In this document: positions 6,963 through 50,957 of the stretch, in pieces
Position numbering within the stretch: the first letter of the stretch is position 1
How the letters are laid out: every line of letters begins with the position of its first letter
Origin: Chiloscyllium plagiosum
Lineage: Eukaryota
DNA: 64,000 bases
Direction: 5' to 3'
Assembly: GCF_004010195.1 (NCBI RefSeq)
Contig: NC_057718.1
Span: 66,836,179 to 66,900,178, forward strand
Program-made: the position numbers and the translations under genes
Notes under the pieces: generated by a model
Seen by the model: only the letters and a program-made list of their open reading frames with translations
Database searches by the model: none
Told to the model about the DNA's origin: nothing

Positions 6963-7070
6963 ATTATTATAATGGATCGAAAGAAGATCAAAAACCATTA
7001 TCTGAAAACTTGGTTTACCGTGGATCTGATTGGTATCATGCCTGTTGATTATGTTTTTCTGTGTGCAAAA
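6963..7070 (+). CDS. Internal coding exon of a divergent HCN-family channel (S2-S3 linker and S3 helix)
   Basis: Polypyrimidine tract ttttcttttctttcaatAG acceptor and GTAAGT donor at 7071; 108 nt, phase 0/0. Translation IIIMDRKKIKNHYLKTWFTVDLIGIMPVDYVFLCAK matches HCN [32 protein letters not shown]. Not in the ORF track; the 6924..7193 minus ORF is its antisense shadow. Confidence 0.93.
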
Positions 7071-7844
7071 GTAAGTCATAATGTATGTAAATAATCGCTC
7101 TATCCCGAGAATGGGACATTCTAGAGTGACTTCACTGATAATTTTCACCTTGATCCAATCAATAACTTTCTTGTCTCTGTTTTTGAAGCACATTGATAGT
7201 TACAGCTGAAGTCCAAAACTAGAGATAACAGAGATGGGTTAATAGCTTGAACGCTAAAATTTGATTTCCGGTTGAAAATTCATTGCAAATCTTGATAACC
7301 TTTGACCAAGAAAACAGAAAAAAAATCCAAAAATGATCAAAATGCTTAGCAGATTAGAAGGGAGCAACACAGTTAATATTTCAGGTTGATGACCTATTAT
7401 TAGAACTGAGAAAGAAATCAGAAGTGTAATAGCTAAGTTAAGATGAATGGAATATGGAAGAAGAACAAGACAAGGAATGTGATTGGTAGAAAACAGAAAG
7501 TATTAAATGACAAAAGACGTAGTGGTACAGGGCCAAAAGGAGTAGGAATGGCAGTAGTAACGAAGAAACAAAAGATGTGTCTAGAGAAGGTTTGAATGGG
7601 AGATAGATAAACATTTGTTGTTTAAAAGGGAAAGCAAGAAAATAGTGAATATTAAATGAATTTGCAAAGAGAAAGGAAACAAAATACGAGCAGAAATTAT
7701 GCTCTGGAATTGATTTGTTGAGTCCAGAGATTAGGTTCAGCTTCATTGAGACACTGCAGAAGGATAAGGACAAAAGAGGACGCGGAGAGCAAGGTGGAGA
7801 TTAGATTGGAGATCAGATAGCTCTTGACCTAAGTGTTGTTCAGC

Positions 7845-9148
7845 ATGGAGGAGTACCGATTCAACAGCTGAGGGAGGATGGTATGTGGTAATCAGTAGGA
7901 CATTTCCTTGACCATATTTCCTTGACCTCAAGCCACAAGGCTTATGAAGTCTGGAGTCAATACTGAAGACTGCCAGGGCAACTCCCTCCCAACTGTATAC
8001 CACTGTGTCACCACCTCTGCTGGGTCTGTCCTGCTGATGGGACAGAAAATATCCAAGGATGGTGAAGATGGTGCCTGGGACATTGTGTGTAAGGTGTGAT
8101 TCTGTGAGTATCACTATGTCAGGCTGTTGCTTGGCCAGTTTGTGAGACAGCTCTCCCAAATTGGCACTAGTCCCCAGATGTTAGTAAGGAGGACTTTGCA
8201 GGGTTGACAGGATTGCTTCTGCTGTTGTCTTTTCAGGTGCCTACGGTGATGCCAGGTGTTCCGTCTGGTTTCATTTCTTTGATATGTTGAAGGCATTGGC
8301 ACAATTGAATAGCTTGTTAGGCTATTTCAGAGGGCAATTGAGAGTCACCCACATTGCTGTGGGTCTGGAGTCACATGTAGGTCAGACTTCCTTCCCTGAA
8401 GACCATTAGTAAACCAGATGGATTTTTTCATGGTCATCAGTAGATTCTTAATTCCAGATTTTTTTCAAATTCCACCGTCTGCTATGGATGGTCACCAGAA
8501 CATTAGCTGAGTTTCTGGATTAATAGGAGAAAGTGAGGACTGCAGATGCTGGAGATCAGAGTTGAAAATGTGTTGCTGGAAAAGCACAGCAGGTCAGGCA
8601 GCATCCAAGGAGCAGGAGAATCGATGTTTCGGGCATGAGCCCTTCTTCAGGAATGAGGAGAGTGTGCCAAGCAGGCTAAGATAAAAGGTAGGGAGGAGGG
8701 ACTTGGGGGAGGGGGGTTGGAAATGTGATAGATGGAAGGAGGTTAAGGTGAGGGTGATAGGCTGGAGTGGGGGTGGGGGCGGAGAGGTCAGGAAGAAGAT
8801 TGCAGGTTAAGAAGGTGGTGCTGAGTTTGAGGGTTGGGACTGAGACAAGGTGGGGGGAGGGGAAATGAGGAAACTGGAGAAATCTGAGTTCATCCCTTGT
8901 GGTTGGAGGGTTCCTAGGCGGAAGATGAGGCGCTCTTCCTCCAGCCATCGTGTTGCTATGGTCTGGCGATGGAGGAGGCCAAGGACCTGTATGTCCTTGG
9001 TGGAGTGGGAGGGGGAGTTGAAGTGTTGAGCCACGGAGTGGTTGGGTTGGTTAGTCCGGGTGTCCCAGAGGTGTTCTCTGAAACGTTCAGCAAAAGGGCG
9101 ACCTGGATTAATAGGCTAATGATAATATCACTAGGCCATCACCTCGCC
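7845..9148 (-). mobile_element. 5' part of a single-ORF LINE with tRNA-like head and DeuSINE-like 5' region, interrupted by a PLE
   Basis: CKVLLTNIWGL and LSHKLAKQQPDIVILTES (APE endonuclease N-terminus; ORFs 8114..8302 and 7743..8159). Box A-like TGGCCTAGTGA near 9140-9130. Confidence 0.75.
8528..9102 (-). mobile_element. PLE 3' fragment: GIY-YIG C-terminus plus pLTR
   Basis: AQHFNSPSHS...EEERLIFRLGTLQPQGMN (8807..9034 -); 13-bp TSD ctggattaatagg at 8515-8527 and 9103-9115. Confidence 0.85.
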
Positions 9149-10859
9149 ATAATTATTCCCTGATAATTTAATTATTCTTCCTATGGATTGTTCCTTGTTT
9201 CTTTTTCCCACAGGCAAGCTAAACCTTATGATATAATGTTCACCGTCCCCTATGTGTTCTCCTGATGGCACTTGATCCACATAGTTCATCTAATTCCCGT
9301 GAATCAGTTTCAGCAGTGCCACCATGCTCATTGGACTGAAATTAGAAAATTCTACTGAACTCACTTCAGCACCTATTGCTCCTCCTTATCCATTTCACTA
9401 CTATTTGATAATTAAAATTCACCATTATGACTACTCTGTAATTCTTGCACCTTTCTAAGTTTCTTGTAAATTTGCCAATAGTTGATGGCCTGTAGATGAC
9501 ACACTGACTACTTTACCTACACTGCTCTTGTTGCTTGATTCTCCCCAAAAACATCTACCCTTCCACACTTCTCAGCACTGCAGTGTTTTCATTAATCAAT
9601 ATGGCACTTCTATCCTTTTCCTGAACACCTTATCCAGATATAACTAATGTTAAATCCTACTCTTCTTTGAATCATGACTCCAATTTAGCCACAGCGTTGG
9701 CTAATCACATATGGATGTATACACATCTTATTTATCTTGCTGTATGCATTCACATGTATGATATGCACAGTAACTAATTTATTTTAATGTTTTCTTCCTT
9801 GGTCTAATAACTTATGTTGTACCTGCCACACAGTGTGTTTAAGTTCATTAAAAGAACTGAGAGTTGACTCTTATGGACAATAATATTTGTTTGTTGAACA
9901 CAATTAATATTAGAACAATAAAGTATACTATAAGCTAACAAGAAAGTATTACAAACTATCTTATGCTTTAACTTAACGTTTTATGATCATGTACCACCAC
10001 ACTAGATCTTGGACGGGCTCCACGTGGTGATGTCTTCTTCTTCTTCCGATGGTCTTGGAGATGTTTTCTCTTTCGGTGGTTATTCTTGAATTACTGCCCT
10101 GAGTGGCATTTTGCAGCGATTCTTACCCTTCTGAGTCTTTGCGCTCTTTTGGGAGAGTCTCTAGAATCTGTCAATAGATTGATCAGATTCAATTACTCTG
10201 ATCAATCAGACCCAACCAAGTGTTTGCACATTGATGGCAGGGTGGCCCTTAGGTGTCCTTTATGGTAGGTGCTGGGTGCATGTAGCTTTCTCCAGACAAG
10301 GGTGCTAGGTGCCTCTATGTCCAGCGAATGATTCACTGCTCCTGATTGTCCTGAGGGCGTCATTCCATTGTCCCATTCAAATTCAACTTGAGGTGTGTAT
10401 TGCAGGGTCTGCACCTAGGAGAAAGTGAGGATTCCAGATGTTGAAGATCAGAGTTAAAACGTGTGGTGCTGGAAAAGTTTGTCTGCAAACCGTATGTAGG
10501 CAGCTACAGTCTGGATTCTGCAGCATATGGATTAGCATAGTCACTGCAGTTAAGGCTAGGTTCTATTTCTCCTGCATGCTTTAATCATTGTCCATCTTTT
10601 TTAATTCCATGGTACGTTTACTATTGTCTGTTATAAGTTCATTATTTTGGGTGGCCTGTCTGGCTACACTTATTTGTTCCAGTCTACTTCTGTCTGTTTC
10701 TCCCAACACAGTACTCATCTCTTTTATTAACTGTTGATTCCCACATCCTGCTTAGTTAATTTAAGCCTTCACCAATAGCAGTAGCAAAGGTGAAAACCTG
10801 TATGGGTCCTAATTTACCCTCAGCTGATTCCAGTGTCACAGGATTCTAAAATCCTTCTC

Positions 10860-11240
10860 TGTGGGTCATGTATAAATTGGTTCTGGGTAATTGCAGCCCC
10901 TTTTTAGTTATTTGAAAGATTTTTTGCTGTGCTTTTGGTTATACTTCAGCCCCATTCTTCTGATATTTGGGCATCTGGTGTGGAAGGATATGTGCAAGTC
11001 TGTGGATCTCCTTGTGGGTCTGTTCCTCGCCAAGTTAGCCATTAACAGGTCCAGGCAGTGGGCTGAAACTGTTTGCCTCTTTTCCATGGCTATGCTTGTG
11101 TACCGGTATCTTTGGAACGGGATCATGCAGTTTTCACCAATACTCTCTATGCCTTTAGAAAGAGTGGACACTGTAGGGCAAAGTGTGCTTTATTTTCCCC
11201 TCCAACAATATTTTGATTTATCTCCTTACCCCTCTCCCTA
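10860..11240 (+). mobile_element. Tx1/L1-clade LINE ORF2 C-terminal fragment
   Basis: LQPLFSYLK...FSPILLIFGH...DLLVGLFLAKLAINRSRQ resembles the Tx1 ORF2 C-terminus after the zinc finger. Confidence 0.6.
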
Positions 11241-12424
11241 ACCTTTCGATAGTTTGCATTGTCTATAATGGGCTTTGCATGTAAATATTCAATTGGCTAC
11301 ATGGGTGATTTCTGGTGGTGGTTAGTAGTTAAAAGCAAAACTAATAGTCACAGTGATTTTCTCATATAAAAACTGTTCGCTTATGTGTGATAGCACTTCC
11401 AGACATATAAGGAATGTCCTCTCACCGGCACCATCTTTCAAGCTATGCATTTATCTGCTTTATTCTCCTAATTCTATACTCACTCTTCGTATCTGGAGTA
11501 ATCTTGGATTACTATTTTTGGGATGCTACTTGCAAAATTCTTGCACAGCTCTGTAAACTCTGATTGCAGAACCACATTACTCTGTTTACCCATTTGACTG
11601 GATTTGCATAATGATGGCTGATTGTTCACCTTCACCATTCAGGGTGATCTACAGCTGTTCTATGAAATTTTTGATCTTGGGGTCAGGCCACAGAAATTTA
11701 TGTCTGTTCCCTTAAATATGAAATCTCTTTTTACTTTGCAGTTCCAGTTTTCTTTCTTCTTTCCTGTATTATGCCATTCCCACGCCAGTTAGTGAAATAT
11801 AAAACTGGACGTTAATATCAATCTTGACAATAGATTTATTTGCAGTATGCAACAACACATTTTTATGCTTCTTACTTACTATAACCGTCTTCCAGCAGTT
11901 TCTCTTTATAAGAACCCCAGAGATAGTTTTCTGATCAATCTGTTCAAAGATGTTGTTACACAACTTTGGAGCAGGTGGGACCTGAAACCAGGCTCAGAGG
12001 TAGGGACATTGCCACTGCCCACAAGACCCCTATAAGTGCCCCAGATTCTGAAGAAAATAAGGTCCCTCACCTGCTTATCTCAACAATTTAATTGATATAC
12101 CATTAACAGACTCTCCTTTCTTTAAAACAAACTATATAAACTATCAAAGACCAGCTCACACTAAGAATTATTTTCAGATTAACAGACTTCAACTCATGTC
12201 ATATAGATAGAAATCTAAGAGTCGATTGATGAGTTTGTCACAAGATGCTGCAGCAAAGGGCATGAGTGTGATTTTTCCAAACAAATTTCAGAGAGGCTAA
12301 TTGAATTAATAATCACCTCTACACTGATTAAAGCCTTTAGGAAGGATTTTCTAGGCAAGGGAGAAGGCACCTTTCCATACCATTGGCACCTTACTTGAAA
12401 ATGGATACTAACATAGTGGCAGGA

Positions 12425-12640
12425 CTGGGTACTGCAGGTGCTGGAGACTAGAGCGGTGCTGGAAAAGCACAGCAGGTCAGGCAGCATCCAAGGAGCAGGA
12501 AAATCAATGTTTCGGGCAAAAGCCCTTCATCAGGAATCATCATCCTGTTGAAGGGTTTTTGCCCGAAACGTCGATTTTCATGCTCCTCAGATGCTGCCTG
12601 ACCTGCTGTGCTTTTCCAGCACCCCTCCAATCTTGACTAA
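12425..12640. mobile_element. Inverted pair of PLE pLTR fragments
   Basis: Two opposed copies of the gctggaaaagcacagcaggtcaggcagcatc...cccttcatcagg unit meeting near 12540. Confidence 0.8.
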
Positions 12641-12897
12641 CATCGTGGCAGTCCAACAACAATTGCACTCATCAGATGCAGCCAATAAAATTGCTACTGT
12701 CAGCAAAGCGAGAAGATCTCTAACATGCGGTTTACCACAACTACTCAAAAGCTGTTTAACTTTTATTCAAATTGGCCAAGTGGCACCAAAAGGCATTGAA
12801 CACATGTGCAAGAAGCTTCCAAAAGCCAAGCCAGTCCCCAGAATAGAACAGGTGACCCACAATCCATAACAACACTACAACATTGTCAACAAGACAA

Positions 12898-15800
12898 ATA
12901 GAGTCATTGAGTCATAGAGATGTACAGCATGGAAACAAACTCTTCGGTCCAACCCGTCCATGCCGACCAGATATCCCAACCCAATCTAGGCCCACACCTG
13001 CCAGCACCCGGCCCATATCCCTCCAAATCCTTCCTATTCATATACCCATCCAAATGCCTCTTAAATGTTGCAATTGTACCAGCTTCCACCACTTCCTCTG
13101 GCAGCTCATTCCATACCCGTACCACCCTCTATGTGAAAACGTTGCCCCTTAGGTCTCTTTTATATCTTTCCCCTCTCACCCTAAACCTATGCCCTCTAGT
13201 TCTGGACTCCCTGACCCCAGGAAAAAGACTTTGCCTATTTACCCTATCCATGCCCCTCATAATTTTGTAAACCTGTATTAGGTCACCCCTCAGCCTCCGA
13301 CGCTCCAGGGAAAACAGCCCAGCCTGTTCAGCCTCTCCCTATAGCTCAAATCCTCCAACCCTGGCAACATCCTTGTAAATCTTTTCTGAACCCTTTCAAG
13401 TTTCACAACATCTTTCCGATAGGAAGGAGACAAAAATACATGCAATATTCCAACAGTGGCCGAAACAATGTCCTGTACAGCCACAACATGACCTCCCAAC
13501 TCCTGTACTCAATACTCTGACCAATAAAAGAAAGCATACCAAATGCCTTCTTTACGCTCCTATCTACCTGCGACTCCACTTTCAAGAAGCTATGAACCTG
13601 CACTCCAAGGTCTCTTTGTTCAGCAACACTCCCTAGGACCTTACCATGAAGTGTACAAGTCCTGCTCAGATTTGCTTTCCCAAAATGCAGCACCTCGCAT
13701 TTATTTGAATTAAACTCCATCTGCCACTTCTCAGCCCATTGGCTCATCTGGTCAAGATGCTGTTGTAATCTGAGGTAATCCTCTTCGCTGTCCACTATAC
13801 CTCCAATTTTCATGTCATCTGCAAACTTACTAACTATACCTCTTATGCTCGTATCCAAATCATTTATGTAAGTGACAAAAGGTAGAGGACTCAGCACCTA
13901 TCCTTGTGGCACTCCACTGGTCACAGGCCTCCAATCTGAAAAACAACCCTCCACCACCACCCTCTGTCTTCTACCTTTCAGCCAGTTCTGTATCTAAATG
14001 GCTAGTTCTCCCTGTATTCCATGAGATTTAACCTCCCATCAGTCTCCCATGGGGAACCTTATAGAATGCCTTACTGAAGTCCATATAGATCACATCTACT
14101 GCTCTGCCCTCATCAATCCTCTTTGTTACTTCTTCAGAAAACTCAATCAAATTTGTGAGACATGATTTCCCACGCACAAAGCCACGTTGACTATCCTTAA
14201 TCAGTTCTTGCCTTTCCAAATGCATGTACATCCTGTCCCTCAGGATTCCCTCCAACAACTTGCCCACCACCGAGGTCAGGCTCACTAGTCTACAGTTCCC
14301 TGGCTTGTCCTTACCACCCTTCTTAAACAGTGGCACCACGTTAGCCAACCTCCAGTCTTCGGGCACCTTACCTGTGACTATCAATGATACAACTATCTCA
14401 GCAAGAGGCCAACAATTACTTCTCTAACTTCCCACAGAGTTCTAGGGTACACCTGATCAGGTCCTGGGGATTTATCCACCTTTACCCATTTCAAGACATC
14501 CATTACTTCCTCCTCTGTAATCTGGACATTTTGCAAGATATCACCATCGATTTCCCTACAGTCTATATCTTCCATATCCTTTTCCACAGTAAATACTGAT
14601 GCAAAATACTCATTTAGTATCTCCCCATTTTCTGCAGCTCCACACAAAGTCCGCCTTGTTGATCTTTGAGGGGCCCTATTCTCTCCCTAGTTACCCTTTT
14701 GTCCTTAATATATTTGTAAAATCCCTTTCGATTTTCCTTAATTCTATTTGCCAAAGCTATCTCATGTCCCCTTTTTGCCCTCCTGATTTCCCTCTTAAGT
14801 ATACTCCTACTTCCTTTATACTCTTCTAAGGATTCATTCCTGTCTATACCTTACATATGTTTCCTTTTTCTTTACCAAACCCTCAATTTCTTTAGTCATC
14901 CAGCATTCCCTCTACCTACCAGCCTTTCCTTTCACCTTGACAGGAATATACTTTCTCTGGATTCTCGTTATCTTCCCATTTTCCAGCCGTCCCTTTCCCT
15001 GCAAATATCTGCCCCCAATCAGCTTTCGAATGTTCTTGCCTAATACCGTCAAAATTGGCCTTTCTCCAATTTAGAACTTCAACTTTTAGATCTGGTCTAT
15101 CCTTTTCCATCACTATGTTACATCTAATAGAATTATGATCGCTGTCCCCAAAGTGATTCCCCACTGACACCTCAGACACCTGCCCTGCCTTATTTCCCAA
15201 GAGTAGGTCAAGTTTTGCACCTTCTCTAGTAGGTACATCCACATACTGAATCATAAAATTGTCTTGTACGCACTTAACAAATTCCTCTCCATCTAAACTT
15301 TTAACACTATGGCAGTCCTAGTCAATGTTTGGAAACTTAAAATCCCCTACCATAACCACCCTATTATTCTTACAGATAGCTGAGATATCCTTACAAGTTT
15401 GTTTCCCAATTTCCCTCTGACTAATAGGGGGTCTATAATACAATCCCTATAAGGTGATCATCCCTTTCTTATTTCTCAGTTCCACCCAAATAACTTCCCT
15501 GGATGTATTTCCGGGAATATCCTCCCTCAGCACAGTTGTAATGCTATCCCTTTTCAAAATGCCACTCACCCTCTTCTCTTGCCTCCCTTTCTATCCTTCC
15601 TGTAGCATTTGTATCCTGGAACATTAAGCTGCCAGTCCTGCCCATCCCTGAGCCATATTTCTGTAATTACTATGATATCCCAGTCCCATGCCCTGAGTTC
15701 ATCTGCCTTCCCTGTTAGGCCCCTTGCATTGAAATAAATGCAGTTTAATTTATTAGTCCTACCTTGTCCCTGCTTGCCCTGACTGTTTGACTCGCTTCTG

Positions 15801-16247: not shown

Positions 16248-16249
16248 CG

Positions 16250-16505: not shown

Positions 16506-16509
16506 ATTC

Positions 16510-40204: not shown

Positions 40205-43190
40205 CTGGAATTAAGAATCTACTGATGACCATGAAACCATTGTTGATTGTCAAGAAAACCAGTCTGGTTCACTAATGTTCTTCAGGGAAGGAAATCTACT
40301 ATCCTCACCTAGTCTGGCCTACATGTGACTCCAAACCCACAACAATGTGGTTGAATTGCAGTTATCCTCTGAAATGGCCCAGGAAGCCATTCAATTATAT
40401 CAATTGCTACGAAGTTTCAAAGGAATGAAATCGGACGGATAACCTGGCATTGACCTAGGCATCAGACAAGACAACAGCAGAAACAGCCCTGTTGACCCTG
40501 CAAAGTCCTCCTTATTAACATCTGGGGGCTAATCAAAATTGGGGCTAGTCAAGCAACAGCCTCATAGTCATACTCACTGTATCAAATCTTATAGACAATG
40601 TCCCAGACACTACCATAACCATCCCTGGGTATGTCCTGTTCCTTGGCAGGACAGGCCCAGCAGAGGTGATGGCACACTGGTATACAGAGGGGAGGCAGTT
40701 TGCCCTGGAAGTCCTCAATGTTAACGATATTTCATGGCTTCAGATTAATTATAGGCAAGGAAACCTCCTGCTGATAGCCATATACGATCCTCCTTCGGCT
40801 GATGAATTGGTACTCCTCCATGTTGAACAACATATAGGAGAAGCACTGAGAATGGCAAGGACACAAAATGGGGGATTTCAATCTCCACCATCAAGAGTAG
40901 CTTGGCAGTAGGACTACTGATTAATCTGGTCGGGTTCTAAATGAGATAACTGCTAGACTGGGTCTGCAGTAGGTGGTGAGGAAACCGACAAGAGGGAAAT
41001 ACATACTTGACCTCATCCTTACCAATCTGTCAGCTGCAGATGCATCTGTCCATGACAGTATCACTAAGACCGACCATCACACAGTCCTTCTGGAGATGAG
41101 GTCCTGACTTCAAATTGAGAAGAACCTCCATCGTGTTGTATGGCACTATCACCATGCTAAATGGGAGAGACTTCAAACAGATCTAGCAACTCAAGACGAT
41201 GCATCCATGAGGTGCTGTGGGCCATCAGCGGCAGCGGAATTGTACTCCAGCACAATCTGTAACCTCATGGTGTGGCATACCATCCACTTAACCATTATCA
41301 TCAAGCCAGGGCATCAACCCTGGTTCAATGGAGAGTGCAGGAGGCCATGCCAGGAACAGCAACAGGCATACCTGAAGATGAAGTGTCAACCTGGTGAAGT
41401 CACCAAACAGCATAAGCAGCAAGTGATAGAGTAAACGATTCCAAAACTAACAGATCAGATCTTAGCTCTGCAAACCTGCCACATCCAGTTGTGAATGGTG
41501 ATGTACAATTAAACAACTCACTGGAGGGGGAGGCTCCACAAATATCCTCATCCTCAATGATGAAACAGCCCAGCACATTAGTGGGAATGATAAGGTTGAA
41601 GCCTCTTCCAGTCGTCCCCGGCATTACAGTCTTCAGCCAATTTGATTCACTCCACTTGATATCAAGAAATGTTTGGAGATACTGGGCACTTCAAAGGCTT
41701 TGGACTCTGACAACATGTTGGCAATATTACTAAAGGCTTGTGCTCCAGAACTTGCCGCTCCCCTAGCCAAGCTGTTCTAGTATAGTTACCCAACATTGGG
41801 GAAAATTGCTCCTGTACATAAAAAGCAGAACAAATCCAACCCAGCCAATTGCTGCCCCATCAGTCTACTCTTAATCATCAGAAAAAATGATGGAAGCTAT
41901 CATCAACAGTGCTATCACACACCATCTGCTCAGCAATAACCTGCTCAGTGATGCCCAGTTTGGGTTCCGCCAGGGCACTCAGCTCCTGACCCATGACAAC
42001 CTTGGTTCAATCATGGACAAAAAAGCCAAATTCTAAAGGGAAGGTGAGAGTGAGAGCCTTTGACATCAAGGCTGCATTCAATCAATAGCAAGACTTGAAT
42101 CAATGGGTATTGGGGACAAACTCTGCACTGGTTGGGTATCGTACTAGGTCCATAGAAAACTGGGCATGGTTGTTGGAGGTCAGTCACCTCTGCTGCAGGA
42201 CATCTCTGCAAGAGTTCTTCAGAATGGTGTTCTACACTCAATCATCTTCAGCTGCTTCTTTAATGACCTGTCTTCCATCATAAGGTCAGAAGTGAGGATG
42301 TTTGCTGATGATTGCACAATTTTCAGCACCATTTGTGACTCCTCAGGTACTGACGCAATCCCTCCTGAAATGCAACAAGATCTGGACAATATACAGGTTT
42401 GGGCTGACAAGTGGCAAGTAACATTTGTGCCACACAAATGCCAGGCTATGACCATCAGCAATGAGTTTCAATCTAACCACCACCTTGACATTCAATGTGT
42501 TATCATCACTGAATCCCCCCACTGTTCACATCCTGGTGGTTATCATTGACCAGAAACTCAACTGGACTCACCACATAAATACTGGCTACAAGAACAGGTC
42601 AAAGGCTAGAAATACTGTTGCGAGTAACTCACCTCCTGACTCCCCATACCCTGTCCACCATCAACAAGGCACAAGTTAGGAGTGTGATGGATCAATCTCC
42701 ACTAGCCTGGAAGACTTCAGCTCCAACAACACTCAAGAATATTGACACCATCTAGGACAAAGCAGCCTACTTGATTGACACTACATACACAAGCATCCAC
42801 TCTCTCTACCACTGACACTCAGTAGGAACAATGTGCACTACATACAAGATGCACTGCAGAAGTTCACCAAAGATCCTCAGACAACATCTTCCAAACCCAC
42901 AACCACTTCCATCCAGAAGGACAAGGGAGCAAATGCATGGGAACACCATCACCTTCAACGTCCCCTCCAAGTCATTCACCATCCTGACTTGGAAACATGT
43001 TGCCATTCCTCCACTGTCACTGGGTCAAAATCCTGGAATTCCCTTTCTAATGGCATTGTGGGTCAACCCACAGCAAATGGACTGCAGTGGTTAAAAAAAG
43101 ATCACTATCACATTCTCAAGGGCAACTAGGGACAGGCAATAAACACTGGCCAGCCACTGATGACCACATCCCACAGATGAATATAAAAAA
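40205..43190 (+). mobile_element. Near full-length single-ORF LINE (APE + RT, CR1/L2 group) with DeuSINE-like 5' region
   Basis: Endonuclease start ~40500; IIKPGHQPWFN; FNDLSSIIRSEVRMFADDCT (42166..42549); 3' end gggcaactagggacaggcaataaa...gaataaaaaa. Confidence 0.85.
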
Positions 43191-43224
43191 CCCCTCTCTC
43201 CCTGAACTGATTAATCAGATAAAG

Positions 43225-44515
43225 TAAGGGTGACAGCCTTTGATATCACTATCACATTCGACTCAGAGTGCCATCAAGGAGCCCTAACAAAACTGGAATC
43301 AACGGATATTGGGAGCAAACTCTCCACTTGTTGGAATCATCGAGGAGAAAGTGAGCCCTTCCTGAAGAAGGCCTCATGCCTGAAACGTCGATTCTCCTGC
43401 TCCTTGGATGCTGCCTGACCTGCTGCGCTTTTCCAGCAACACATTTTCAGCTTGTTGGAATCATACTTGGCACATAGAAAGATGGTCGCAGTTGTTGGAG
43501 GTCAGACATCTTAGTGCCAGGACATCTCCGCAGGAGTTCCTCAGGGTAATATCTTTTGCCCAACTACCTTTAGCAGATGCATCAATGACCTTCCTTCCCT
43601 CATAAGGTCAGAAATCGGATGTGCGCTGATGACTGCACAATGTTCAGCACATGTCATAACTCTTCAGATAGTGAAGCACTCCATGTTCAAATGCAAAATG
43701 ATCTGGACAATACCCAGGCTTGGGCTGACAAGGGGCATGTAATATTCATACCACACAAATGCCAGGCAATGACTATCGTCAATAAGAAACAATCTAACCA
43801 CTGCCCCTAGACATTCAATGGTGTTACCATCACAAATTCCCCACTATCAACACCCTTGGGGTTACCATTGACCAGTAATCAACTGGACTCACCATATAAA
43901 TACAATATAACGGCTACAAGAGCAGGTCGGGGCTAGGAATTCTGCAGCGAGTAACTCACCTCATGACTCCCTAAACCCTGTCCACCAGTTGGAAGGCACA
44001 AGTCAGGAGTGTGATGGAATGCTCCCTACTTGCCTGGATTTGTGCAGCTCTAACATCACTCAAGAAGCTTGACACCATCTAGGATAAAGAACCCCACTTG
44101 ATTGGCATCAGCTCTGCAAACATCCACTCCCTCTACCACTGAAGCTCAGTTGCAGCAGTGTGGTCTATCTACAAGATGTACTGCAGAAATTCACCTGAGA
44201 GCCTCAGACAACACCTTCCAAATCCACCACCACTTCCAGCTAAAAGGACAAGGGGAGCAACTACATGGGAACAGCATGACTTGCAGGTTCCCCTCTAAGC
44301 CACTCACCATCCTGACTTGTACCACTGTCCCTTTACTGTTGCTGGGTCAAATTCCTGGAATTCCCTCCCAAATGGAATTGTGGGTCAACCCACAGAGGGT
44401 GGCTCTGCAGTAGTGCAAGAAGGTAGGTCACCACCACCTTCTCAAGGGCAACTAGGGATGGGCAATAAATGCTGATCAGCCAGCGATGCCCACAACCCAT
44501 GAATGAATTAAAAAC
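43225..44515 (+). mobile_element. Second, 5'-truncated copy of the same LINE family
   Basis: MCADDCTMFST...DLDNTQAWADK; same 3' end at 44450-44515. Confidence 0.82.
43341..43450. mobile_element. PLE pLTR fragment with short inversion and hammerhead core
   Basis: 14-bp TSD cttgttggaatcat at 43327 and 43451; CTGAAGA-AGGC-ctcat-GCCT-GAAACGTC. Confidence 0.82.
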
Positions 44516-45239
44516 ACTTTAGCACTCCTCCATGTCAAACACCAATAGGAGGAAGCACGGAGGGTGGAATGCCATGTTCATTAACGAGAATGGTTCAATG
44601 TCGTTGCTCCTGATTGAGTCCCAAAAGACAGAACTGCTAGATTTTGTCTGTAGAATGTAGTAAGCAAACCAACAAAAGGACAAAGTCTATTTGACCTCAT
44701 TCTCACCAATCTACTTGTCACAGATTTAGAAACAAAGATTTGTGTTCCCATGGAGGCTGGCCTTTTTTGTATTCTTTTATGTGCCACTGTATTAAATGGT
44801 TTGAAGACATACCCAGCACAAAATAAAAGGATTGTATTCTTGAATAGCAACAGTCATATCCCAGGAAACTACTATGACAAATCTGTAGTGTAATGTCCTA
44901 GACCTGAACATCCTCAGCTACTTATGATCTTCCTTGATCATAAGGCCAGAAATATTATTTGTGTTAAGAATCAATGTGTGGTATCATTCGCTACTCCTCA
45001 GATACTGAGTGGTTACTGAAATAGTCCATCTTCATTCACCATTAATTTACTCCATTCTCCATCTAATTGACAACGTTCAAGCCTGTGATGATTCATGGCA
45101 AGTAACATTTATACTACACAAGTGCCAGACAATAACTATCTCCAAAAAGAGGGAATCTAATCAATTCTAATTATTACCATTGCTAATTCTGCCATTCTCC
45201 ACATCCTTTGGTTTCAGATTGACTAAAAAACAAGTTTGA

Positions 45240-45609
45240 GGAGAAAGTGAGGGCTGCAGATGCTGGAGATCAGAGCTGAAAATGTGTTGCTGGAAAAGCG
45301 CAGTAGGTCAGGCAGCATCCAAGGAACAGGAGAATCGATGTTTCGGGCATGAGCCCTTCTTCAGCTACCACCATAAGTTTTCACTCCAACCACAGATGCA
45401 CTGAAGCTACTCTTTTAGACAGCACATACTAAAGCTGCAGCCTGTTCCATATGGAGGGAGAAGGGGAGCAGATGTAGGGAACACCACCATCTACAAGATC
45501 TCCTCTAAGCTGCACAAGGGCTGAAGAAGGGCTCATGCCCGAAATGTCGATTCTCCTGTTCCTTGAATGCTGTCTGACCTGCTGCGCTTTTCCAGCAACA
45601 CATTTTCAG
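45240..45609. mobile_element. Composite PLE insertion: inverted pLTR arms enclosing 150 bp of copied local DNA
   Basis: 17-bp TSD ctaaaaaacaagtttga at 45223 and 45610; 45367-45516 copies 46184-46333. Confidence 0.88.
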
Positions 45610-45839
45610 CTAAAAAACAAGTTTGACCAACCATAAAAGTACCATAGCTAGAAGAGCAAGTAAGAAGCTAGGAATTCTACAGCAAGTAATTCACTTCCTG
45701 AATTTCCAAAACTTGATAAGCATTTACAGAGTGTGATGGAATGCTGTCCAGTTGCCTCGATGATTGCAGTTTAACAACATTCAAGAAGCTAGACACTAAC
45801 CATGAAAAAGCAATTGATATGATTGACACCCCATTCACT

Positions 45840-46183
45840 CTGGCAGAAGATAACAGAGCATACAGTCTCTCACGGCCAGACTGTGTAACAGTTTCTTCCT
45901 CCAAGCCATCAGGCTCCTGAACACTGTATAATTGGACTCTTTTCAATCTGAAATTCTTTTGTATTGCTGCTAGAAAAATGTCTATTATCCATCATTCTTC
46001 ATCCATCATCCATTGTAACTTGGGTGCTTTGCACTTATTATGCACTTTACGCTGTGGATGATTGTGTAGTTGTGATGTCCCTGTAGCACCCTCAGTACTG
46101 GAGGAAAGGTGTCTTGTTTTTACTGTATTAGTTACAGACGGTAGAAATGACAAATAAAGCTGCTCTACTCTTTACTCTACTCG
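45840..46183 (+). mobile_element. Rex1/Babar LINE 3' fragment
   Basis: ARLCNSFFLQAIRLLN-type ORF end, AATAAA and (CTCTA)n-like tail. Confidence 0.65.
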
Positions 46184-46649
46184 ACCACCATAAGTTTTCA
46201 CTCCAACCACAGATGCACTGAAGCTACTCTTTTAGACATCACATACTAAAGCTGCAGCCTGTTCCATATGGAGGGACAAGGGGAGCAGATATAGGGAACA
46301 CCTCCATCTACAAGATCTCCTCCAAGCTGCACACTAATCAGACTTAAAATTGTTATGAACATTCCTTCATGGTTGCTTGGTCAAAATCCTGAACCTCCCT
46401 TCCTAATAGCACTGTATGTTTCCATACAACACATCGTCCACAGTGGTGGAAGACTTACAATCACCTCCAGGGCAATGAGATAGGTACAACTGTTGCAGGT
46501 CTGGCCAGTGATACACATATCTCAAGAAAGAATAAATTATTTTAAAAATGGCTGAATCTTGTGTGTTTTTAGCTAAATGCAAGTAGCATCAAGACTTTAG
46601 AGGCGTCCTCATTGCATAGCCTAGTGAGATCTCTCACCATACCATACCA

Positions 46650-47960
46650 AACTGACCTCATAGACAGGGTAACTGCTTCGCAGAACAATTAATTTCTGCC
46701 TTCAAAAAAGACCCTGAGCTTCCAGTTGCCTGCCATTTTAACACACCACCCTATTCCCTGGCCAATATCTGTTTCAGGCTTGCTGCAGTGTTCCTGCAAA
46801 GTTCAGTGCAAGCTGGAAGAACAACACCTCATTTTCCAATTGGGGACACTGCAGCCCTCTGGACTCAAAATCAAGTTCAATAATTTTAGGGCCTGAACTC
46901 CCCCATGTCCTAGCCCCCTACCATACACACCAGACCTTGTTATCACATAGTCTGCCAGTACACACTACCTGTTGTAAGCAACTAACAGTCTCTGTTAACA
47001 GATATTCACCCTCCCAGCCAGATCATTACAAAGGAACCTCAATTATCTGTACATCAATTATCTGAATATTGGATTATCTGAAGGAGATCTCGAGGTCCCG
47101 ACAGAAATATTACGTCAAAGAGTTATTTCAACTCTGATCGCATCTTTTGTTTACAGGTACAATGATTAAAAACAAACTCAGCTCACTGAAATGCTGCCAA
47201 GAACAGTCCTGGACAGTCCAGCTACTATCTCCAAATTACTGACCTCCCCCCTCTCTGTCTCCCCCCACCACTTTCCCTGGAGTTCTACACAGGGGTGTAC
47301 CCTAAATCCCCCTTCCCCAGATAATCTCTCCAACATTGTCCTGTACAGGGCAGAGTGAGATTTTGTCAAAAAGTTGCAGTAAAACGTTGTGTCCATATGT
47401 GTCTATGTGTGCAATTTGGAGACTTACCCCACAAAGGCAGCAGCAGTCTTACTGTTGGTGTACAGTCTGGCTGCCCCGGGGTGTGGGGGAAGGGGTGGAC
47501 AGGGACGGGTCGGTCGGGGAGCAGGGGTGCAGGCAGGGGTTGGTGGTGGGGGCGGTGTTGGACAGGGTTGGGGGCGGGAGTTCGCGTGCGGTGTGCTGTT
47601 GCCTAGACTCCTGAATGGGGAGCAGACTTCACAGAAAACTCCGCGCCCCAGAGGAAATCAATTAACCGAATAATCAATTATCCTAAATAGTGCCCGCCCA
47701 TCTCGTCCGAATAATCAAGGTTCCTCTGTATTGATTCCTTTGTCTGTCCAACTGTTCTTCTGTCTCTTTGGGCTCTGTTCCTACCTATAATTTACTCCTA
47801 ACACCCCCTACCCCCAACTTTTGCATATAAACCAACATTTTCTTAGCTACCATCAGTTCTGAGGACAGGTCACCGGACCTGAAACATTAACTTTAATTTC
47901 TCTTCACAGATGCTGCCAGACCTGCTAAGCTCTTCCAGCAACTTCTACTTTTGTTTCTGA
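46650..47960 (+). mobile_element. PLE 3' fragment (second family) split by a MITE
   Basis: PELPVACHFN...EEQHLIF.LGTLQPSGL GIY-YIG C-terminus; decayed hammerhead AGTT-CTGAGGA..GGTC-accg-GACC.GAAAC-ATT-AACT at ~47855-47892. Confidence 0.75.
47029..47728. mobile_element. Non-autonomous Tc1/mariner (pogo/Tigger-type) MITE, 700 bp
   Basis: TA TSDs (47027-28 and 47729-30); TIRs CAAAGGAACCTCAATTATCTG and CAGAGGAACCTTGATTATTCG; subterminal ATTATC(T/C)G repeats. Confidence 0.85.
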
Positions 47961-50798
47961 CCTCATTAACTACCTATGGCATCCCTTTAGCATTACTTAC
48001 ATCCAATTCTAGCCTCATCTTACTCAGAACAACTCACCACTGGATATCTACCAAAAAAACAGCATGTCTTGCACCTAGGGCATCTTTAAAAAGCTACTGT
48101 TCACCTGGACAAGCATTGGCGGGCAATATTGTGGTACAGCAGCCACAAAACCACACTGCTCACGACATATTCGGCAGTGTCCTCACTCATACAATCTCAT
48201 TCTCTCTCCTTTGACACTGTTTAATCATCACCCCCCAACATTGTTTACCCATCTAGCTACATCCCATCTAGCCACTTTCTCTAAGTCACCACTATTCTGC
48301 CCCTCATGTCTAGTGGGACCTGCATCTAATCATTGTCCATTTGGAAAACATGGCAATGAGACAAGCAATAGGTCAATTCTAAACTCAGCTTTTATTTACA
48401 CACACCAAAAGTGAACACAAGACAAAACTAATAGAGGCTGAAATTCACAGCTGCAATGCAGAGATCATGACCAATGACTATTTTGACGTCCATGCTGGTC
48501 TGCTACACTCAGCTGTCATCTATTGGAAGATCGGATTTTCTTGGGTTGGACCACCCAATCTCTGTCAAGGAAAGCTTCCTCCTCGCCAATATCCTCAGCA
48601 TCCTACTTGAAAGATTGCTGTCATTCTCCCAGTTTATCAGTATCACATTGCTTGCTTAAGATCAGAGCATGACAGGATGGTGCAGCACAGTGTCTGAATT
48701 ATACTGAGAGGCCATTCCGGAATGGTCTAAGCAGTGGAATTGCACCTTCGTCTGGCCTTCCTCTGTACCACCATTGTATCTATGCTCTGTATCAGTTGGG
48801 GTTGTAATTGGCATCATGAACGCATGGCTTATACCTTGTCTTCCAGTAATCAGCCTGTGGAGGCTATAGTGGTGGTCACTGCCAATACCTTTCTCTCCCA
48901 TTACTTATCAACTTTTAGGATGCTGTTCTGCCTAACCCTGGCACAACTGAAGTTTTTATCACTGTCATTGTCCCTACCATTATAAGTGTCTCTGCTTTAC
49001 CCCACCAGTCTTGACTCCTCCATCCCTACAAAGAATTTTGAACAAACAACTGACCAATCCCCAGCTCTGTGTTCACTACAGACCTCTGACTTCAGCAAGC
49101 AGCTCCTAGACATAACTAACAAGACCCTGACCATTGTGTTTGCTGCTCCCTAATTGATGAAACATGATTCCCTTAATTGTTGATGCTGGCCTTACAAGAC
49201 TAACCAATGCCCACTACCTGCACTGTTACCAGATATATTCCGAGTTGAGCCCAAACCATGAGGATAATTGAATGCATTCAAGCCCTGGACTGACTGCAGA
49301 CCTTGCTGCTGACTGATGGTACTGGAATATGTGAAAGACAACCCCTCTCACCTTGACTAGACTGATGACTAGGCCCCAACCAGTTTCTCTGATATAGCTA
49401 TTTAGTTGACCAAATGTGCGGTGTGTTTGTTACACAGGAGGCTGGCATATGCTTTAGGTACTTTGTGCACCGTGCACCAAGACATCTCCAGCCCCCATCC
49501 CATTGACAGAGACCTATTGACAAGCATAAGTAGCCTGTCTGCGGGTGCTAAAAAGCACATCAGTATGGATTACTGGCAGCCACTGGCTCTCACTCAAGTG
49601 CCATGTGTCAACACTTATGACAAGGTAAGGCAAGCAAGCCATGGATGCTGTGAACATGCAAGTATGTTGCTTATTGAGTGAGTGGTAAGAGAGCCAGTGA
49701 GCAGCCCTAAGACGTAGCCTGTCAGTCAATTGGATGCATGCCCCTGCACACAGTGTCTCAGCAGCAGATTTTCAATGCTTGTGGCCGGTATAACCTACAG
49801 TACAAGTCTGTACTTCCTATGTGAACGGCAGGTGGATAAGTTGTGATGGGTTGGCAAAAGTCAGATGCCAATGTCTGTTAGTGAGATGTGTGTGTGGCTG
49901 GAGCCTATTGATTGTGCCCTCAAATGTTCTGTACAGTGAGCAACATTCAGTCTGGTCACAGCCAACAGCAAGCTGAAGTTGCCAGGTACCTGTTCTGAAT
50001 TCCATGTCAAGAATTCTCGATGTCAAGCTTGCTTGGTGCATTTGGTAAGTTAGGAAGATGAATAGTAATGAGACAGGTTGTGGCAATGATAAGACATATA
50101 ACAAACTATAATCCCACTTAATGGGCAACTTGTCACTGTCTAGATGGTCAGCAAAAACATACAAAAACATGCAATGAGATGTCTCAAGCCATGTGATGGG
50201 TTTCACTGGACTTTGCATCCAATTCTGCCACAAATCTCACCATGGATCAAATACGTCAGACCATAAGATTGTGTCCACTCTTATTGTTTCAAACGTACTT
50301 TGTAAATATTGAGCAAACTTAATATTTTTGCCATCTCAATACTACCTATATTTTAACCCATCTATTGTTGTGGCCATACTTATGTTTCTTTTATTTTTTA
50401 TTTATTTACCTTTTTTATGTTTCTTGATTAAGTTGTGTCTTTTTTCCAGTCTTTTTTTTCTTATTATGTACTTAATGTATGTCCCTTTCTTAGCCCTCAA
50501 CTGTTTCCTTATGTCTTTGCTCACCGATGTATCCCACTGATATTTAGTTGTTCTTTCCTTGCAATGGAATATATTTTTCTTTAATTATTTCTCATTGTTT
50601 ATCAATATAGTTGCCCATTTTATTTTACCAAAATTCCATTTTCAAACTCAAAACCAGCTTTTCGGCAGTCTATTAACTTGTTTTTGTGATACTTACGTAC
50701 TATCGAGTTTAGAATATACAGTATTAGGATTTAATAATATGATAAATCATAATATAAATGTATTCCTTCTTTCTAATCAATTTGTTTCACTTCTACAG

Positions 50799-50957
50799 AT
50801 TCATGAGTGGGATGTAGGTATGACAAAAGTCTTGCATTTAATGTACTGGATTGGTATTGCAGTACTTTTTTGTCACTGGAATGCCTGTTTACAATTTCTC
50901 ATTGTGATGATACAAGAATTTCCTGAGAATAGTTGGGTGCACATTCAAGATCTTGAG
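50799..50957 (+). CDS. Internal coding exon of the same HCN-like channel (S5 helix and turret)
   Basis: Acceptor tttgtttcacttctacAG and donor GTGAGA at 50958; 159 nt, phase 0/0. Translation IHEWDVGMTKVLHLMYWIGIAVLFCHWNACLQFLIVMIQEFPENSWVHIQDLE matches HCN [49 protein letters not shown]. Lies within ORF 50559..50993. Confidence 0.93.

What the first reader, a model, noticed from the sequence alone, without database searches (positions are those of the whole stretch)
6963..50957. Highly divergent HCN-family channel gene that is neither a canonical HCN1-4 nor an obvious HCNL proton channel
Seen: three short exons 25.6 kb and 18 kb apart, all phase 0 with canonical splice sites, joining into a stop-free 136-aa S3-S4-S5 segment. 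Known: vertebrate HCN1-4 are nearly invariant across this segment and encode S1-S4 in one exon. Here there are many substitutions and two additional introns, one before S3 and one in the S3-S4 linker. Inference: a separate HCN paralog lineage in cartilaginous fish, possibly related to the sperm-expressed teleost HCN-like (HCNL) channels, with unknown ion selectivity and gating.
Basis: partly seen in the sequence, partly recalled or inferred. Interest (0 to 1): 0.85.

Follow-up and report, generated by a model that had tools for sequence, protein, structure and literature searches.

The report
Shark HCN-like channel without potassium filter
The window holds three middle exons of an intact gene for a pacemaker-type (HCN family) ion channel from an unnamed branch of that family, whose potassium filter and one voltage-sensor seal residue are changed, so it probably passes ions differently from ordinary pacemaker channels.

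Summary
Three phase-0 exons with AG/GT sites lie on the + strand at 6963-7070, 32633-32773 and 50799-50957. They encode 36+47+53 aa covering S3, S4 and S5.

In the window's own 3.56-Gb genome they are exons 3-5 of an intact 10-exon, 552-aa gene spanning 301 kb, with no internal stop.

In trees the gene groups with shark and skate orthologs, gar, a teleost and coelacanth in "clade I" (100/100). Clade I is sister to the clade holding teleost HCNL1/HCNL2 (hcn5) and lies outside HCN1-4. AU tests reject placing it with HCN1-4 (p 3e-45) or with the HCNL clade (p 0.0003).

Three extra introns are shared with the HCNL-clade paralog of the same genome. The canonical HCN paralogs of that genome that were checked lack them.

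Signature here:
- filter CLDYA instead of CIGYG;
- the S2 charge-transfer Phe is Ser;
- S4 charge R5 is Asn;
- the HCNL proton-path Met is absent (Lys);
- the two main gating charges and the breakpoint Ser are kept.

Function is inferred only: a hyperpolarization-sensing channel that is not a K+/Na+ pacemaker. Expression could not be tested. No paper found describes this clade.

The parts
1..6962 (+). 3' part of intron 2 (23,904 bases in all). The S1-S2 exon lies 16.9 kb upstream of the window start.
   Evidence: Gene model in the window's own genome. tblastn found no further exon of the gene here.
6963..7070 (+). Exon 3 of 10: 36 aa, phase 0, covering the S2-S3 loop end and S3. Both S3 aspartates (hHCN1 D225, D233) are kept.
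   Evidence: AG/GT sites. 97% identity to catshark P0001, E 1e-17. Isoform P0003 of an ortholog skips exactly this exon. The clade II paralog has an exon of the same 36 aa and phase.
7071..32632 (+). Intron 3 (25,562 bases). It holds reverse-transcriptase fragments of retroelements on the minus strand at 13403-14423.
32633..32773 (+). Exon 4 of 10: 47 aa, phase 0, covering the S3-S4 linker and S4. In hHCN1 numbering the S4 positions read R252 R, R255 R, R258 K, K261 R, S264 S, R267 R, R270 R, S272 S, R273 N, R276 R.
   Evidence: (alignment to solved HCN1/HCN4, E 3e-7).
32774..50798 (+). Intron 4 (18,025 bases), with a reverse-transcriptase fragment at 42148-42549 (+).
50799..50957 (+). Exon 5 of 10: 53 aa, phase 0, covering the S4-S5 linker, S5 and the start of the turret. 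Its two borders coincide with those of the S5 exon of canonical HCN genes.
   Evidence: (89-91% identity to 3 of 3 database hits). Canonical borders come from matches in the same genome.
50958..64000 (+). 5' part of intron 5 (15,656 bases). The pore exon, which encodes CLDYA, starts 2.6 kb beyond the window end.
   Evidence: A reverse-transcriptase-like ORF lies at 51297-51632 (below Pfam's cut-off).

Best explanation
WHAT IT IS (shown; I put this part at about 0.9).
The three exons are exons 3-5 of an intact 10-exon, 552-aa gene that spans 301 kb. It encodes a subunit with the complete HCN architecture:
- an N-terminal helical 'HCN domain';
- S1-S4 with a long S4;
- S5, pore and S6;
- a C-linker and a CNBD.

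It is the elasmobranch member of an unnamed HCN-like subfamily (here 'clade I') that also occurs in gar, a teleost and coelacanth. Clade I is sister to the clade that holds the proton channel HCNL1 and HCNL2 (hcn5). Both clades carry three introns that the canonical HCN paralogs checked in this genome lack.

HOW IT WORKS (inferred; about 0.35-0.4 for the pore reading).
- The voltage sensor should still respond to hyperpolarization. The two charges that cross the charge-transfer centre (R267, R270), the breakpoint Ser272 and the S2/S3 acidic partners are all kept.
- The K+/Na+ filter CIGYG is replaced by CL-D-Y-A (CLDYG in other sharks), so the channel cannot be an ordinary Ih pacemaker.
- Pore helix, the filter Asp, S6 and the S6-to-C-linker motif DSSRR.Y.EK stay conserved from shark to skate.
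- From this I commit to a hyperpolarization-gated central pore that is re-tuned to an Asp-lined, non-K+-selective cation path, possibly binding divalent ions.
- Gating would be altered by loss of the Phe 'plug' of the charge-transfer centre (F186 to S/T/A) and of charge R5 (R273 to N/S).
- The CNBD keeps the phosphate-binding Arg, but the next residue is Glu instead of Thr. Cyclic-nucleotide control is therefore likely weakened.
For: LOCATION AND GENE MODEL
- Exons and splice sites were read directly.
- Only three significant tblastn hits fall in the window.
- The full gene model in the own genome has all 9 introns GT-AG, a 1659-nt CDS and one terminal stop. It is 83%, 80% and 76% identical to two shark orthologs and one skate ortholog.

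FOLD AND DOMAINS
- The AlphaFold model of ortholog P0004 has pLDDT 81.3, an S4 helix of 37 residues and three helices before S1.
- Foldseek ranks 1-24 as listed (20 rows) are all HCN1/3/4 structures (E 3e-39 to 1e-26). CNG and EAG structures come next, at about 1e-22.
- Pfam finds cNMP_binding in P0004, and Ion_trans plus cNMP_binding in P0007.

PHYLOGENY
- The careful tree has 52 rows and 548 columns and is rooted on a sponge sequence. The elasmobranch group has 100/100 support, clade I 100/100, clade II 100/99, clades I+II together 100/100, and HCN1-4 100/100.
- AU tests reject placing the gene with HCN1-4 (dlnL 143, p 3e-45) and with clade II (dlnL 54, p 0.0003).

INTRONS
- The clade II paralog on contig 12 has introns at the same three places and phases.
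- Four canonical paralogs have S1-S4 in one ORF. Three have pore+S6 in one match without a stop.

RESIDUES
- Positions were read from the alignment, with hHCN1 numbering.
- The roles of R267/R270 and S272 come from passages of PMC6904216.
- Among 354 aligned family proteins, Asp at G360 occurs 11 times, all in this elasmobranch group. F186 is F in 304 and Y in 7. Thr/Ala/Ser occurs 11 times, 9 of them in this group.

CONSERVATION
- Per-exon identity to shark and skate orthologs is 24-28 of 31 for the pore exon, 35-40 of 43 for S6 and 40-46 of 49 for the C-linker.
- In contrast, HCNL1-type proteins have a degenerate filter and S6 end (PMC7306766).
Against: - No current, transcript or protein was seen.
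- Replacing the first Gly of GYG abolishes conduction in HCN4 and Kv channels, according to PMC7306766 (passage). This argues for a dead pore rather than a re-tuned one.
- The last filter residue varies (G in three sharks, A here and in two skates), which could mean relaxed constraint on the filter.
- The sister clade conducts through the voltage sensor, and this gene has lost the Phe plug. A voltage-sensor pathway is therefore nearly as likely.
- The pore, S2 and CNBD residues lie outside the window. For the window's species they rest on my own exon joining in the same genome.
- The groups used in the AU tests were named after the tree had been seen. The tests used the simpler LG+G4 model on 30 of the 52 rows.
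Confidence: 0.45

Rival explanations
1. The central pore is plugged and ions, most likely protons, pass through the voltage-sensing domain, as in HCNL1. The route would differ from HCNL1's. Here the seal would be thinned by loss of the Phe plug of the charge-transfer centre (F186 to S/T/A), with R5 also lost, rather than by a Met in place of S4 charge R0.
For: - The sister clade contains HCNL1, a proton channel that conducts through its VSD with a non-conducting pore (PMC7306766, abstract and passages).
- The first Gly of GYG is replaced, which that paper says gives non-conducting HCN4 and Kv channels.
- F186 is S/T/A in all 6 elasmobranch genes, against F or Y in 311 of the 332 proteins with a residue aligned there.
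- R273 is N or S in all of them.
Against: - The defining HCNL Met position holds Lys, and R267 and R270 are intact. No gap in the charge ladder would sit in the constriction.
- Gar and eel clade I proteins keep Phe and all charges yet have also lost the first Gly. Filter loss in this clade is therefore not tied to a VSD leak.
- S6 and the DSSRR.Y.EK junction are conserved, unlike in HCNL1.
- That a small residue at F186 causes a leak is my recollection of work on other voltage sensors. It was not tested here.
Confidence: 0.28
2. A silent or modulatory subunit. It does not conduct on its own, but co-assembles with canonical HCN or other HCN-like subunits and damps or re-tunes their current.
For: - A CISYG filter in human HCN4 gives non-conducting, dominant-negative subunits (PMC7306766 passage).
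- The tetramer-forming architecture is complete.
- The same genome holds four canonical HCN genes and a clade II gene as possible partners.
Against: - The protein is only about 40% identical to canonical HCN.
- Pfam's Ion_trans_N model does not detect its N-terminal HCN domain.
- Nothing here bears on co-assembly.
- Conservation of the filter Asp in 6 of 6 elasmobranch genes is not explained by a merely dead pore.
Confidence: 0.12
3. A decaying or unexpressed relic (pseudogene in the making). The odd residues would reflect lost constraint.
For: - The stem branch of the elasmobranch group is very long, 0.86 changes per column.
- No expression evidence was obtained.
- Database isoforms of orthologs skip S3 or S4-S5 exons.
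- Introns are very large, up to 144 kb.
Against: - All 10 exons are open with GT-AG introns.
- Identity from shark to skate is 76-83% over the full length, with similar conservation in every domain exon.
- Branches within the group are short, 0.04-0.42.
- The unusual residues are shared by six species.
Confidence: 0.05
4. A fast-evolving ortholog of one of HCN1-4, or of teleost HCNL1/HCNL2, misplaced by long-branch effects.
For: - Database names of the orthologs read 'HCN1-like', 'HCN2-like' and 'HCN4-like'.
- Long branches are present in the tree.
Against: - AU tests reject both placements.
- The same genome has four separate canonical HCN genes and a separate clade II gene on other contigs.
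- The intron pattern differs from canonical HCN.
- The HCNL Met is absent.
Confidence: 0.03

Closest known systems
HCNL1 / HCNL2 (hcn5), the hyperpolarization-activated proton channel family of fish (Wobig et al. 2020, PMC7306766)
   Same: - It is the sister clade in the tree, with 100/100 support for the union.
- The protein is short (about 550 aa) and lacks the long HCN tails.
- The CIGYG filter is lost at the first Gly, as in HCNL2 (xxSYG).
- The three extra introns are at identical places and phases in the clade II paralog of the same genome.
   Different: - The S4 third position is Lys, not the Met that the paper calls key to proton permeation.
- The filter substitution is Asp, not Ser or a degenerate loop.
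- The CNBD Arg is kept, whereas it is lost in HCNL1 (legend of Fig. S1).
- S6 and the C-linker junction are conserved.
- The charge-transfer Phe is lost here but kept in HCNL1/2.
- An AU test rejects membership of that clade (p 0.0003).
Canonical HCN1-4 pacemaker channels (solved structures 5u6o, 6gyn, 8inz and others)
   Same: - It has the same fold and domain order. The best structural matches are all HCN1/3/4.
- It has a long S4 with a Ser at position 264, the gating charges R267/R270, the breakpoint Ser272, and the S2/S3 aspartates.
- The borders of the S5 exon are shared, and so, more roughly, are those of the C-linker and CNBD exons.
   Different: - The filter is CLDYA or CLDYG instead of CIGYG.
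- F186 is S/T/A and R273 is N/S.
- The phosphate-binding cassette reads R-E instead of R-T.
- Identity is about 40%.
- There are 10 coding exons, with S1-S4 split in three and pore/S6 split in two.
- It lies outside the HCN1-4 clade (AU p 3e-45).
Clade I relatives in bony fish: gar XP_015208558 (P0012), Electrophorus XP_026879744 (P0013), coelacanth H3AFD4 (P0139)
   Same: - They belong to the same clade (100/100).
- They have Lys at S4 position R0 and short N- and C-termini.
- The first Gly of the filter is replaced by Asn in gar and eel (TLNYG).
   Different: - They keep the charge-transfer Phe. The gar protein also keeps all S4 charges and a canonical R-T-A-S cassette.
- Coelacanth keeps GYG (SLGYG).
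- The elasmobranch group sits on a long stem branch (0.86) and has Asp in the filter.
- None of these proteins has a described function in the papers searched.

Membership tests
Canonical HCN1-4 | Domain order: HCN domain, six TM segments with a long S4, C-linker, CNBD | tested here: met
   - AlphaFold model of ortholog P0004: pLDDT 81.3.
- The top 20 listed Foldseek rows are all HCN1/3/4.
- Pfam finds cNMP_binding and, in P0007, Ion_trans.
- Pfam's Ion_trans_N model does not reach E 0.01 in the shark proteins.
Canonical HCN1-4 | CIGYG selectivity filter | tested here: not met
   CLDYA in the window's genome (pore exon 2.6 kb past the window end). CLDYG or CLDYA in 5 other elasmobranch genes.
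Canonical HCN1-4 | Falls inside the HCN1-4 clade | tested here: not met
   The tree places it outside. The AU test with the two held together gives dlnL 143, p 3e-45.
Canonical HCN1-4 | Shared exon boundaries, with S1-S4 in one exon and pore+S6 in one exon | tested here: not met
   - Four canonical paralogs of the same genome have S1-S4 in one ORF.
- Three have pore+S6 in one match.
- This gene splits them into 3 and 2 exons.
- That vertebrate HCN paralogs share all boundaries is stated in a passage of PMC3487815.
Canonical HCN1-4 | Cyclic-nucleotide cassette with Arg-Thr (hHCN2 R591-T592; numbering recalled) | tested here: inconclusive
   The Arg is kept but is followed by Glu: K-R-E-V-T here, K-R-E-A-T in orthologs. 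Binding itself cannot be tested with these tools.
HCNL1/HCNL2 (hcn5) | Met interrupting the S4 arginines at the third position (M169 of zebrafish HCNL1) | tested here: not met
   Lys at that position in the window (exon 4) and in all elasmobranch orthologs. The definition is taken from PMC7306766 and its SI sequence.
HCNL1/HCNL2 (hcn5) | Canonical CIGYG filter absent | tested here: met
   CLDYA / CLDYG.
HCNL1/HCNL2 (hcn5) | Falls inside the HCNL clade | tested here: not met
   It is sister to that clade, not inside it. The AU test with the two held together gives dlnL 54, p 0.0003.
HCNL1/HCNL2 (hcn5) | Proton-selective current through the voltage sensor | not testable with these tools
   This needs electrophysiology.
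HCN-like superclade (clades I + II) | Three extra introns: after S2, after S3, and after the filter (phase 1) | tested here: met
   Places and phases are identical in this gene and in the clade II paralog on contig 12 of the same genome. This was not checked in teleost HCNL1/2 or in other species.
KCNH (EAG/ERG) and CNG channels | Best sequence and structure match | tested here: not met
   CNG and EAG structures appear only from rank 25, at E about 1e-22 and 19-22% identity, against 1e-39 and 39% for HCN.

The most novel reading that the evidence does not exclude
Elasmobranchs carry a hyperpolarization-gated channel that has rebuilt both of its possible ion paths in a way not described for any voltage-gated channel. 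A ring of four aspartates replaces the K+ filter, which would give a hyperpolarization-activated Ca2+-permeable or otherwise non-K+ conductance. In addition, or instead, the Phe plug of the voltage sensor's charge-transfer centre is gone, which would open a second, independently evolved voltage-sensor leak beside that of HCNL1.
Probability: 0.25. Interest if true: 0.85.

Novelty: new variant of a known kind. Interest (0 to 1): 0.62.

Why it matters
HCN channels are the only hyperpolarization-opened cation channels of vertebrates. The discovery that their fish relative HCNL1 is a proton channel showed that small changes can re-route ion flow.

This gene shows that the HCN-like group has a second, old subfamily, present in cartilaginous, ray-finned and lobe-finned fish, that no paper found describes. 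Its elasmobranch members combine three changes not seen together elsewhere in the 354 family proteins compared:
- Asp in the filter;
- loss of the charge-transfer Phe;
- loss of charge R5.

All the residues needed for hyperpolarization sensing are kept.

This gives a direct natural experiment on what the GYG filter and the Phe plug do in an HCN scaffold. The three shared introns are a rare-change marker for dating the split of HCN-like from canonical HCN genes.

The practical value is modest until a current or an expression site is known.

Tried and rejected
EXPRESSION
- The look-up of sequencing runs with exon C listed 17 runs. Five hold the exon, and none of those is on record as RNA ('no RNA holder listed').
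Expression and splicing therefore stay untested.

TREE TESTS
- The AU test under the mixture model on all 52 rows did not finish in two calls.
- I replaced it with LG+G4 on 30 of the 52 rows.

PFAM
- Pfam on the three single exons gave no family, because the exons are too short.

PAPERS
- Table S1 and Fig. S1 of PMC7306766, which list the 49 HCNL genes, are pictures and could not be read. Whether any clade I gene was in that list rests on the paper's text: all HCNL2 carry the Met, and their pores read AISYG, QISYG or ALSYG.
- Species names of many database hits were cut off in the listings.
- I searched for the clade in print with these terms: 'HCNL1' (7 papers); 'hcn5', 'HCNL2', 'HCNL3' and 'HCN-like channel' (27 papers, none with HCNL3); HCN with elephant shark, phylogeny and genome duplication (12 papers). 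I read passages of PMC11700363, PMC7533707 and preprint 10.64898/2026.04.08.717291. None mentions a shark HCN-like gene or a third subfamily.

OTHER LEADS
- A further match on the same contig, at 39.37 Mb, is a KCNH/EAG-type S1-S3 exon and not an HCN-like gene (recognised by its motif, which is recalled).
- The ESM Atlas gave only generic HCN clusters.
- Our own findings index had nothing for this place or sequence.
- A literature search on Asp in HCN filters gave nothing I used.

Full report
OBSERVATION

- Exon A: 6963-7070 (..caatag|ATT.. to ..AAA|gtaagt).
- Exon B: 32633-32773 (acceptor AG at 32631-32632, donor gtatgt).
- Exon C: 50799-50957 (..ctacag|ATT.. to ..GAG|gtgaga).

All three are phase 0 and encode 36, 47 and 53 aa, 136 aa in all, without a stop. 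The introns between them measure 25,562 and 18,025 bases.

tblastn of seven full-length relatives against the whole 64-kb window found only these three places, with E values from 5e-31 to 9e-15. Every other HSP had E of 0.67 or worse. So the window holds three exons of the gene and otherwise intron.

Exon B alone matches the S4 of solved HCN1, HCN3 and HCN4 structures at E about 3e-7.

RELATIVES IN DATABASES

Exon C found 3 of 3 candidate proteins at 89-91% identity. All are automatic predictions named 'HCN1-like' or 'HCN2-like', and one is from a catshark.

The 563-aa ortholog P0004 was then used as query. It found six elasmobranch proteins, among them one from the skate Amblyraja. Next came a gar protein (573 bits) and an electric-eel protein (465 bits). 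The mass of canonical HCNs followed at 443 bits or less and 39-42% identity (733 proteins at E <= 1e-20, the best 120 listed).

Isoforms of the orthologs that lack exactly exon A (P0003) or exons B+C (P0011) confirm the exon borders.

THE WHOLE GENE

The window's own genome is held: 3.56 Gb, with the window at contig 9, 66,836,179-66,900,178. A six-frame search with P0004 found all remaining exons on the same strand of the same contig.

I read the splice sites and joined the exons by coordinates in a script. The result:
- 10 coding exons and nine GT-AG introns;
- 1659 nt, 552 aa, one terminal stop;
- a span of 301 kb, with a last intron of 144 kb.

The protein is 83% and 80% identical to the two shark orthologs, 76% to the skate, 46% to the gar clade I protein, 40% to gar HCN1 and 34% to a carp HCNL2.

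Identity to the shark and skate orthologs is similar in every domain exon:
- S3: 27-35 of 36;
- S4: 39-41 of 47;
- S5: 40-48 of 53;
- pore: 23-28 of 31;
- S6: 35-40 of 43;
- C-linker: 40-46 of 49.

PLACE IN THE FAMILY

I collected four sets of sequences.
- 150 representatives from an exhaustive HMMER search.
- Named canonical HCNs.
- Relatives of a Met-bearing HCN-like protein.
- Cluster members that carry names.

Bona fide HCNL2 proteins were recognised by the pore motifs and the S4 Met given in Wobig et al. 2020 (PMC7306766, passages). Some sources name these proteins 'hcn5'. HCNL1-type proteins were recognised by their likeness to the zebrafish sequence printed in that paper's SI.

A careful IQ-TREE run (52 rows, 548 columns, LG+C20+F+G4, rooted on a sponge sequence and two neighbours) gave the following.
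- Canonical HCN1-4 form one clade (100/100).
- All HCN-like proteins form another (32 rows, 100/100).
- The HCN-like clade splits into clade I (11 rows, 100/100) and clade II (21 rows, 100/99).
- Clade I holds the window's gene with three shark and skate orthologs (100/100, stem branch 0.86), gar plus two teleost-type proteins, and coelacanth plus three proteins from unnamed species. Two of those three proteins lie on contigs of 1.3 and 2.1 Gb.
- Clade II holds Callorhinchus, coelacanth, sturgeon, bowfin and all teleost HCNL1 and HCNL2.

Both clades thus have cartilaginous, ray-finned and lobe-finned members. Their split is therefore older than the jawed-vertebrate radiation.

The position of the HCN-like clade relative to tunicate HCN and HCN1-4 is only weakly resolved (93/78).

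AU tests (30 of the 52 rows, LG+G4) reject holding the elasmobranch group with HCN1-4 (dlnL 143, p 3e-45) and with clade II (dlnL 54, p 0.0003). The groups were named after the tree had been seen. The test under the mixture model did not finish.

INTRONS

In the same genome four canonical HCN paralogs encode S1 to S4 in one open frame that ends ..QWEE followed by GT. Three of them show pore plus S6 as one match without a stop.

The window's gene has three more introns:
- after S2 (..EKEE|), phase 0;
- after the 36-aa S3 exon, phase 0;
- after the filter (..LPE|G), phase 1.

The clade II paralog of this genome lies on contig 12 at 48.74-48.85 Mb. It has introns at exactly these three places and phases, including a 36-aa S3 exon.

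These shared rare changes support the union of clades I and II independently of the tree. They also argue against long-branch attraction as its cause. The borders of exon C coincide with those of the canonical S5 exon.

RESIDUES THAT MATTER

Numbering is that of human HCN1, taken from the alignment to solved chains and from PMC11189445 (figure legend).

In the window:
- S3 keeps D225 and D233.
- S4 reads R252 R, R255 R, R258 K, K261 R, S264 S, R267 R, R270 R, S272 S, R273 N, R276 R.
- According to PMC6904216 (passages), R267 and R270 are the charges that cross the charge-transfer centre at F186, and a polar residue at 272 is needed for opening on hyperpolarization. All three are kept.
- The HCNL hallmark, Met at the third charge position (R258), is not present.

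Outside the window, in the same gene:
- S2 reads D-V-I-S-I-V-D, so the charge-transfer Phe186 is Ser. It is Thr in two sharks and Ala in one shark and two skates.
- The filter is CLDYA. It is CLDYG in three sharks and CLDYA in two skates.
- The phosphate-binding cassette is GEMSILTDEKREVT, with the Arg kept and Thr replaced by Glu.

Among 354 aligned family proteins, some of them isoforms of one gene:
- Asp at G360 occurs 11 times, only in this group.
- F186 is F in 304 and Y in 7.
- Thr, Ala or Ser at F186 occurs 11 times, 9 of them in this group.

Gar and eel clade I proteins have TLNYG but keep Phe186. Coelacanth keeps GYG. So loss of the first filter Gly happened several times in both clades, while the Asp, the lost Phe and the lost R5 are elasmobranch-specific.

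FOLD

An AlphaFold model of P0004, built from a 47-sequence alignment, has mean pLDDT 81.3 and pTM 0.67. It shows three helices before S1, a 37-residue S4 helix, and a C-linker with a beta-roll CNBD.

Foldseek against the PDB lists only HCN1, HCN3 and HCN4 chains in its first 20 rows (E 3e-39 to 1e-26, 37-40% identity). CNG and EAG chains follow at about 1e-22.

HOW IT PROBABLY WORKS

What is shown:
- an intact, conserved HCN-fold subunit;
- the hyperpolarization-sensing residues kept;
- the K+/Na+ filter gone.

What is inferred is the ion path.

I favour a gated central pore lined by the conserved Asp (about 0.35-0.4). The reason is that the pore helix, the Asp, S6 and the S6-to-C-linker motif DSSRR.Y.EK are conserved from shark to skate. 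In HCNL1-type proteins, whose pore is known to be dead, these parts are degenerate.

A voltage-sensor path is nearly as likely (about 0.28). The sister clade works that way, the Phe plug is lost, and a first-Gly substitution kills conduction in HCN4 and Kv channels according to PMC7306766.

A silent modulatory subunit (about 0.12) and a relic (about 0.05) remain possible.

Comparisons with Asp-ring filters of other channel families, and with leaks caused by thinning the hydrophobic seal in other voltage sensors, are recalled and were not tested here.

WHAT IS MISSING

There is no evidence on expression.

Table S1 of PMC7306766 is a picture. Many species names were cut off in the listings.

NOVELTY

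The orthologs exist as automatic gene predictions. None of the searches and none of the passages read mentions a shark HCN-like gene, a third HCN-like subfamily, or this residue signature.

I rate it a new variant of a known kind.

Noticed in passing
own genome, contig 12, 48,742,031-48,846,664 (+); loci L028-L034, L026, L018, L027: This is the clade II (HCNL-type) paralog of this genome, with pore GNSYG. Its S4 has Tyr at R0. It also has Gln at both main gating-charge positions (R267 and R270 equivalents) and Ser at R5. Related chondrichthyan proteins (P0190, Callorhinchus) keep R267 and R270.
   Followed up: partly
window 13403-14423 (-), 42148-42549 (+), 51297-51632 (+): Broken reverse-transcriptase ORFs (Pfam RVT_1, E 1e-10 to 3e-4) of retroelements lie inside the introns. 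The third is below Pfam's cut-off.
   Followed up: partly
window 545-773: A 113-base unit is repeated exactly twice in tandem (100% match), inside intron 2.
   Followed up: no
window 16250-16486: Five tandem copies of a 47-base unit (86% match) lie in intron 3.
   Followed up: no
window 12001-16000: There is a strong strand asymmetry (GC skew -0.345 over 4 kb). It overlaps the minus-strand retroelement fragments.
   Followed up: no
own genome, contig 9, 66,953,642-67,097,846: The last intron of the gene is 144 kb, about six to ten times the size of the others (14-26 kb). I did not look at what it contains.
   Followed up: no
orthologs P0003, P0009, P0010, P0011, P0001: Database isoforms of the shark and skate orthologs skip S3, or S4+S5, or use an internal acceptor inside the S5 exon, or read through after the S5 exon. 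If real, many transcripts would encode subunits without a voltage sensor.
   Followed up: no
own genome, contig 9, 39,374,523-39,374,843 (-); locus L016 988-1410: An S1-S3 exon of a KCNH/EAG-type channel lies on the same chromosome, 27 Mb away. It is not part of the HCN-like family.
   Followed up: partly
protein P0341 (coelacanth, clade II): This clade II protein still has a canonical CIGYG filter but already has Leu at S4 position R0. Sturgeon proteins likewise combine GVGYG with Leu. This suggests that in clade II the S4 change came before loss of the filter.
   Followed up: no
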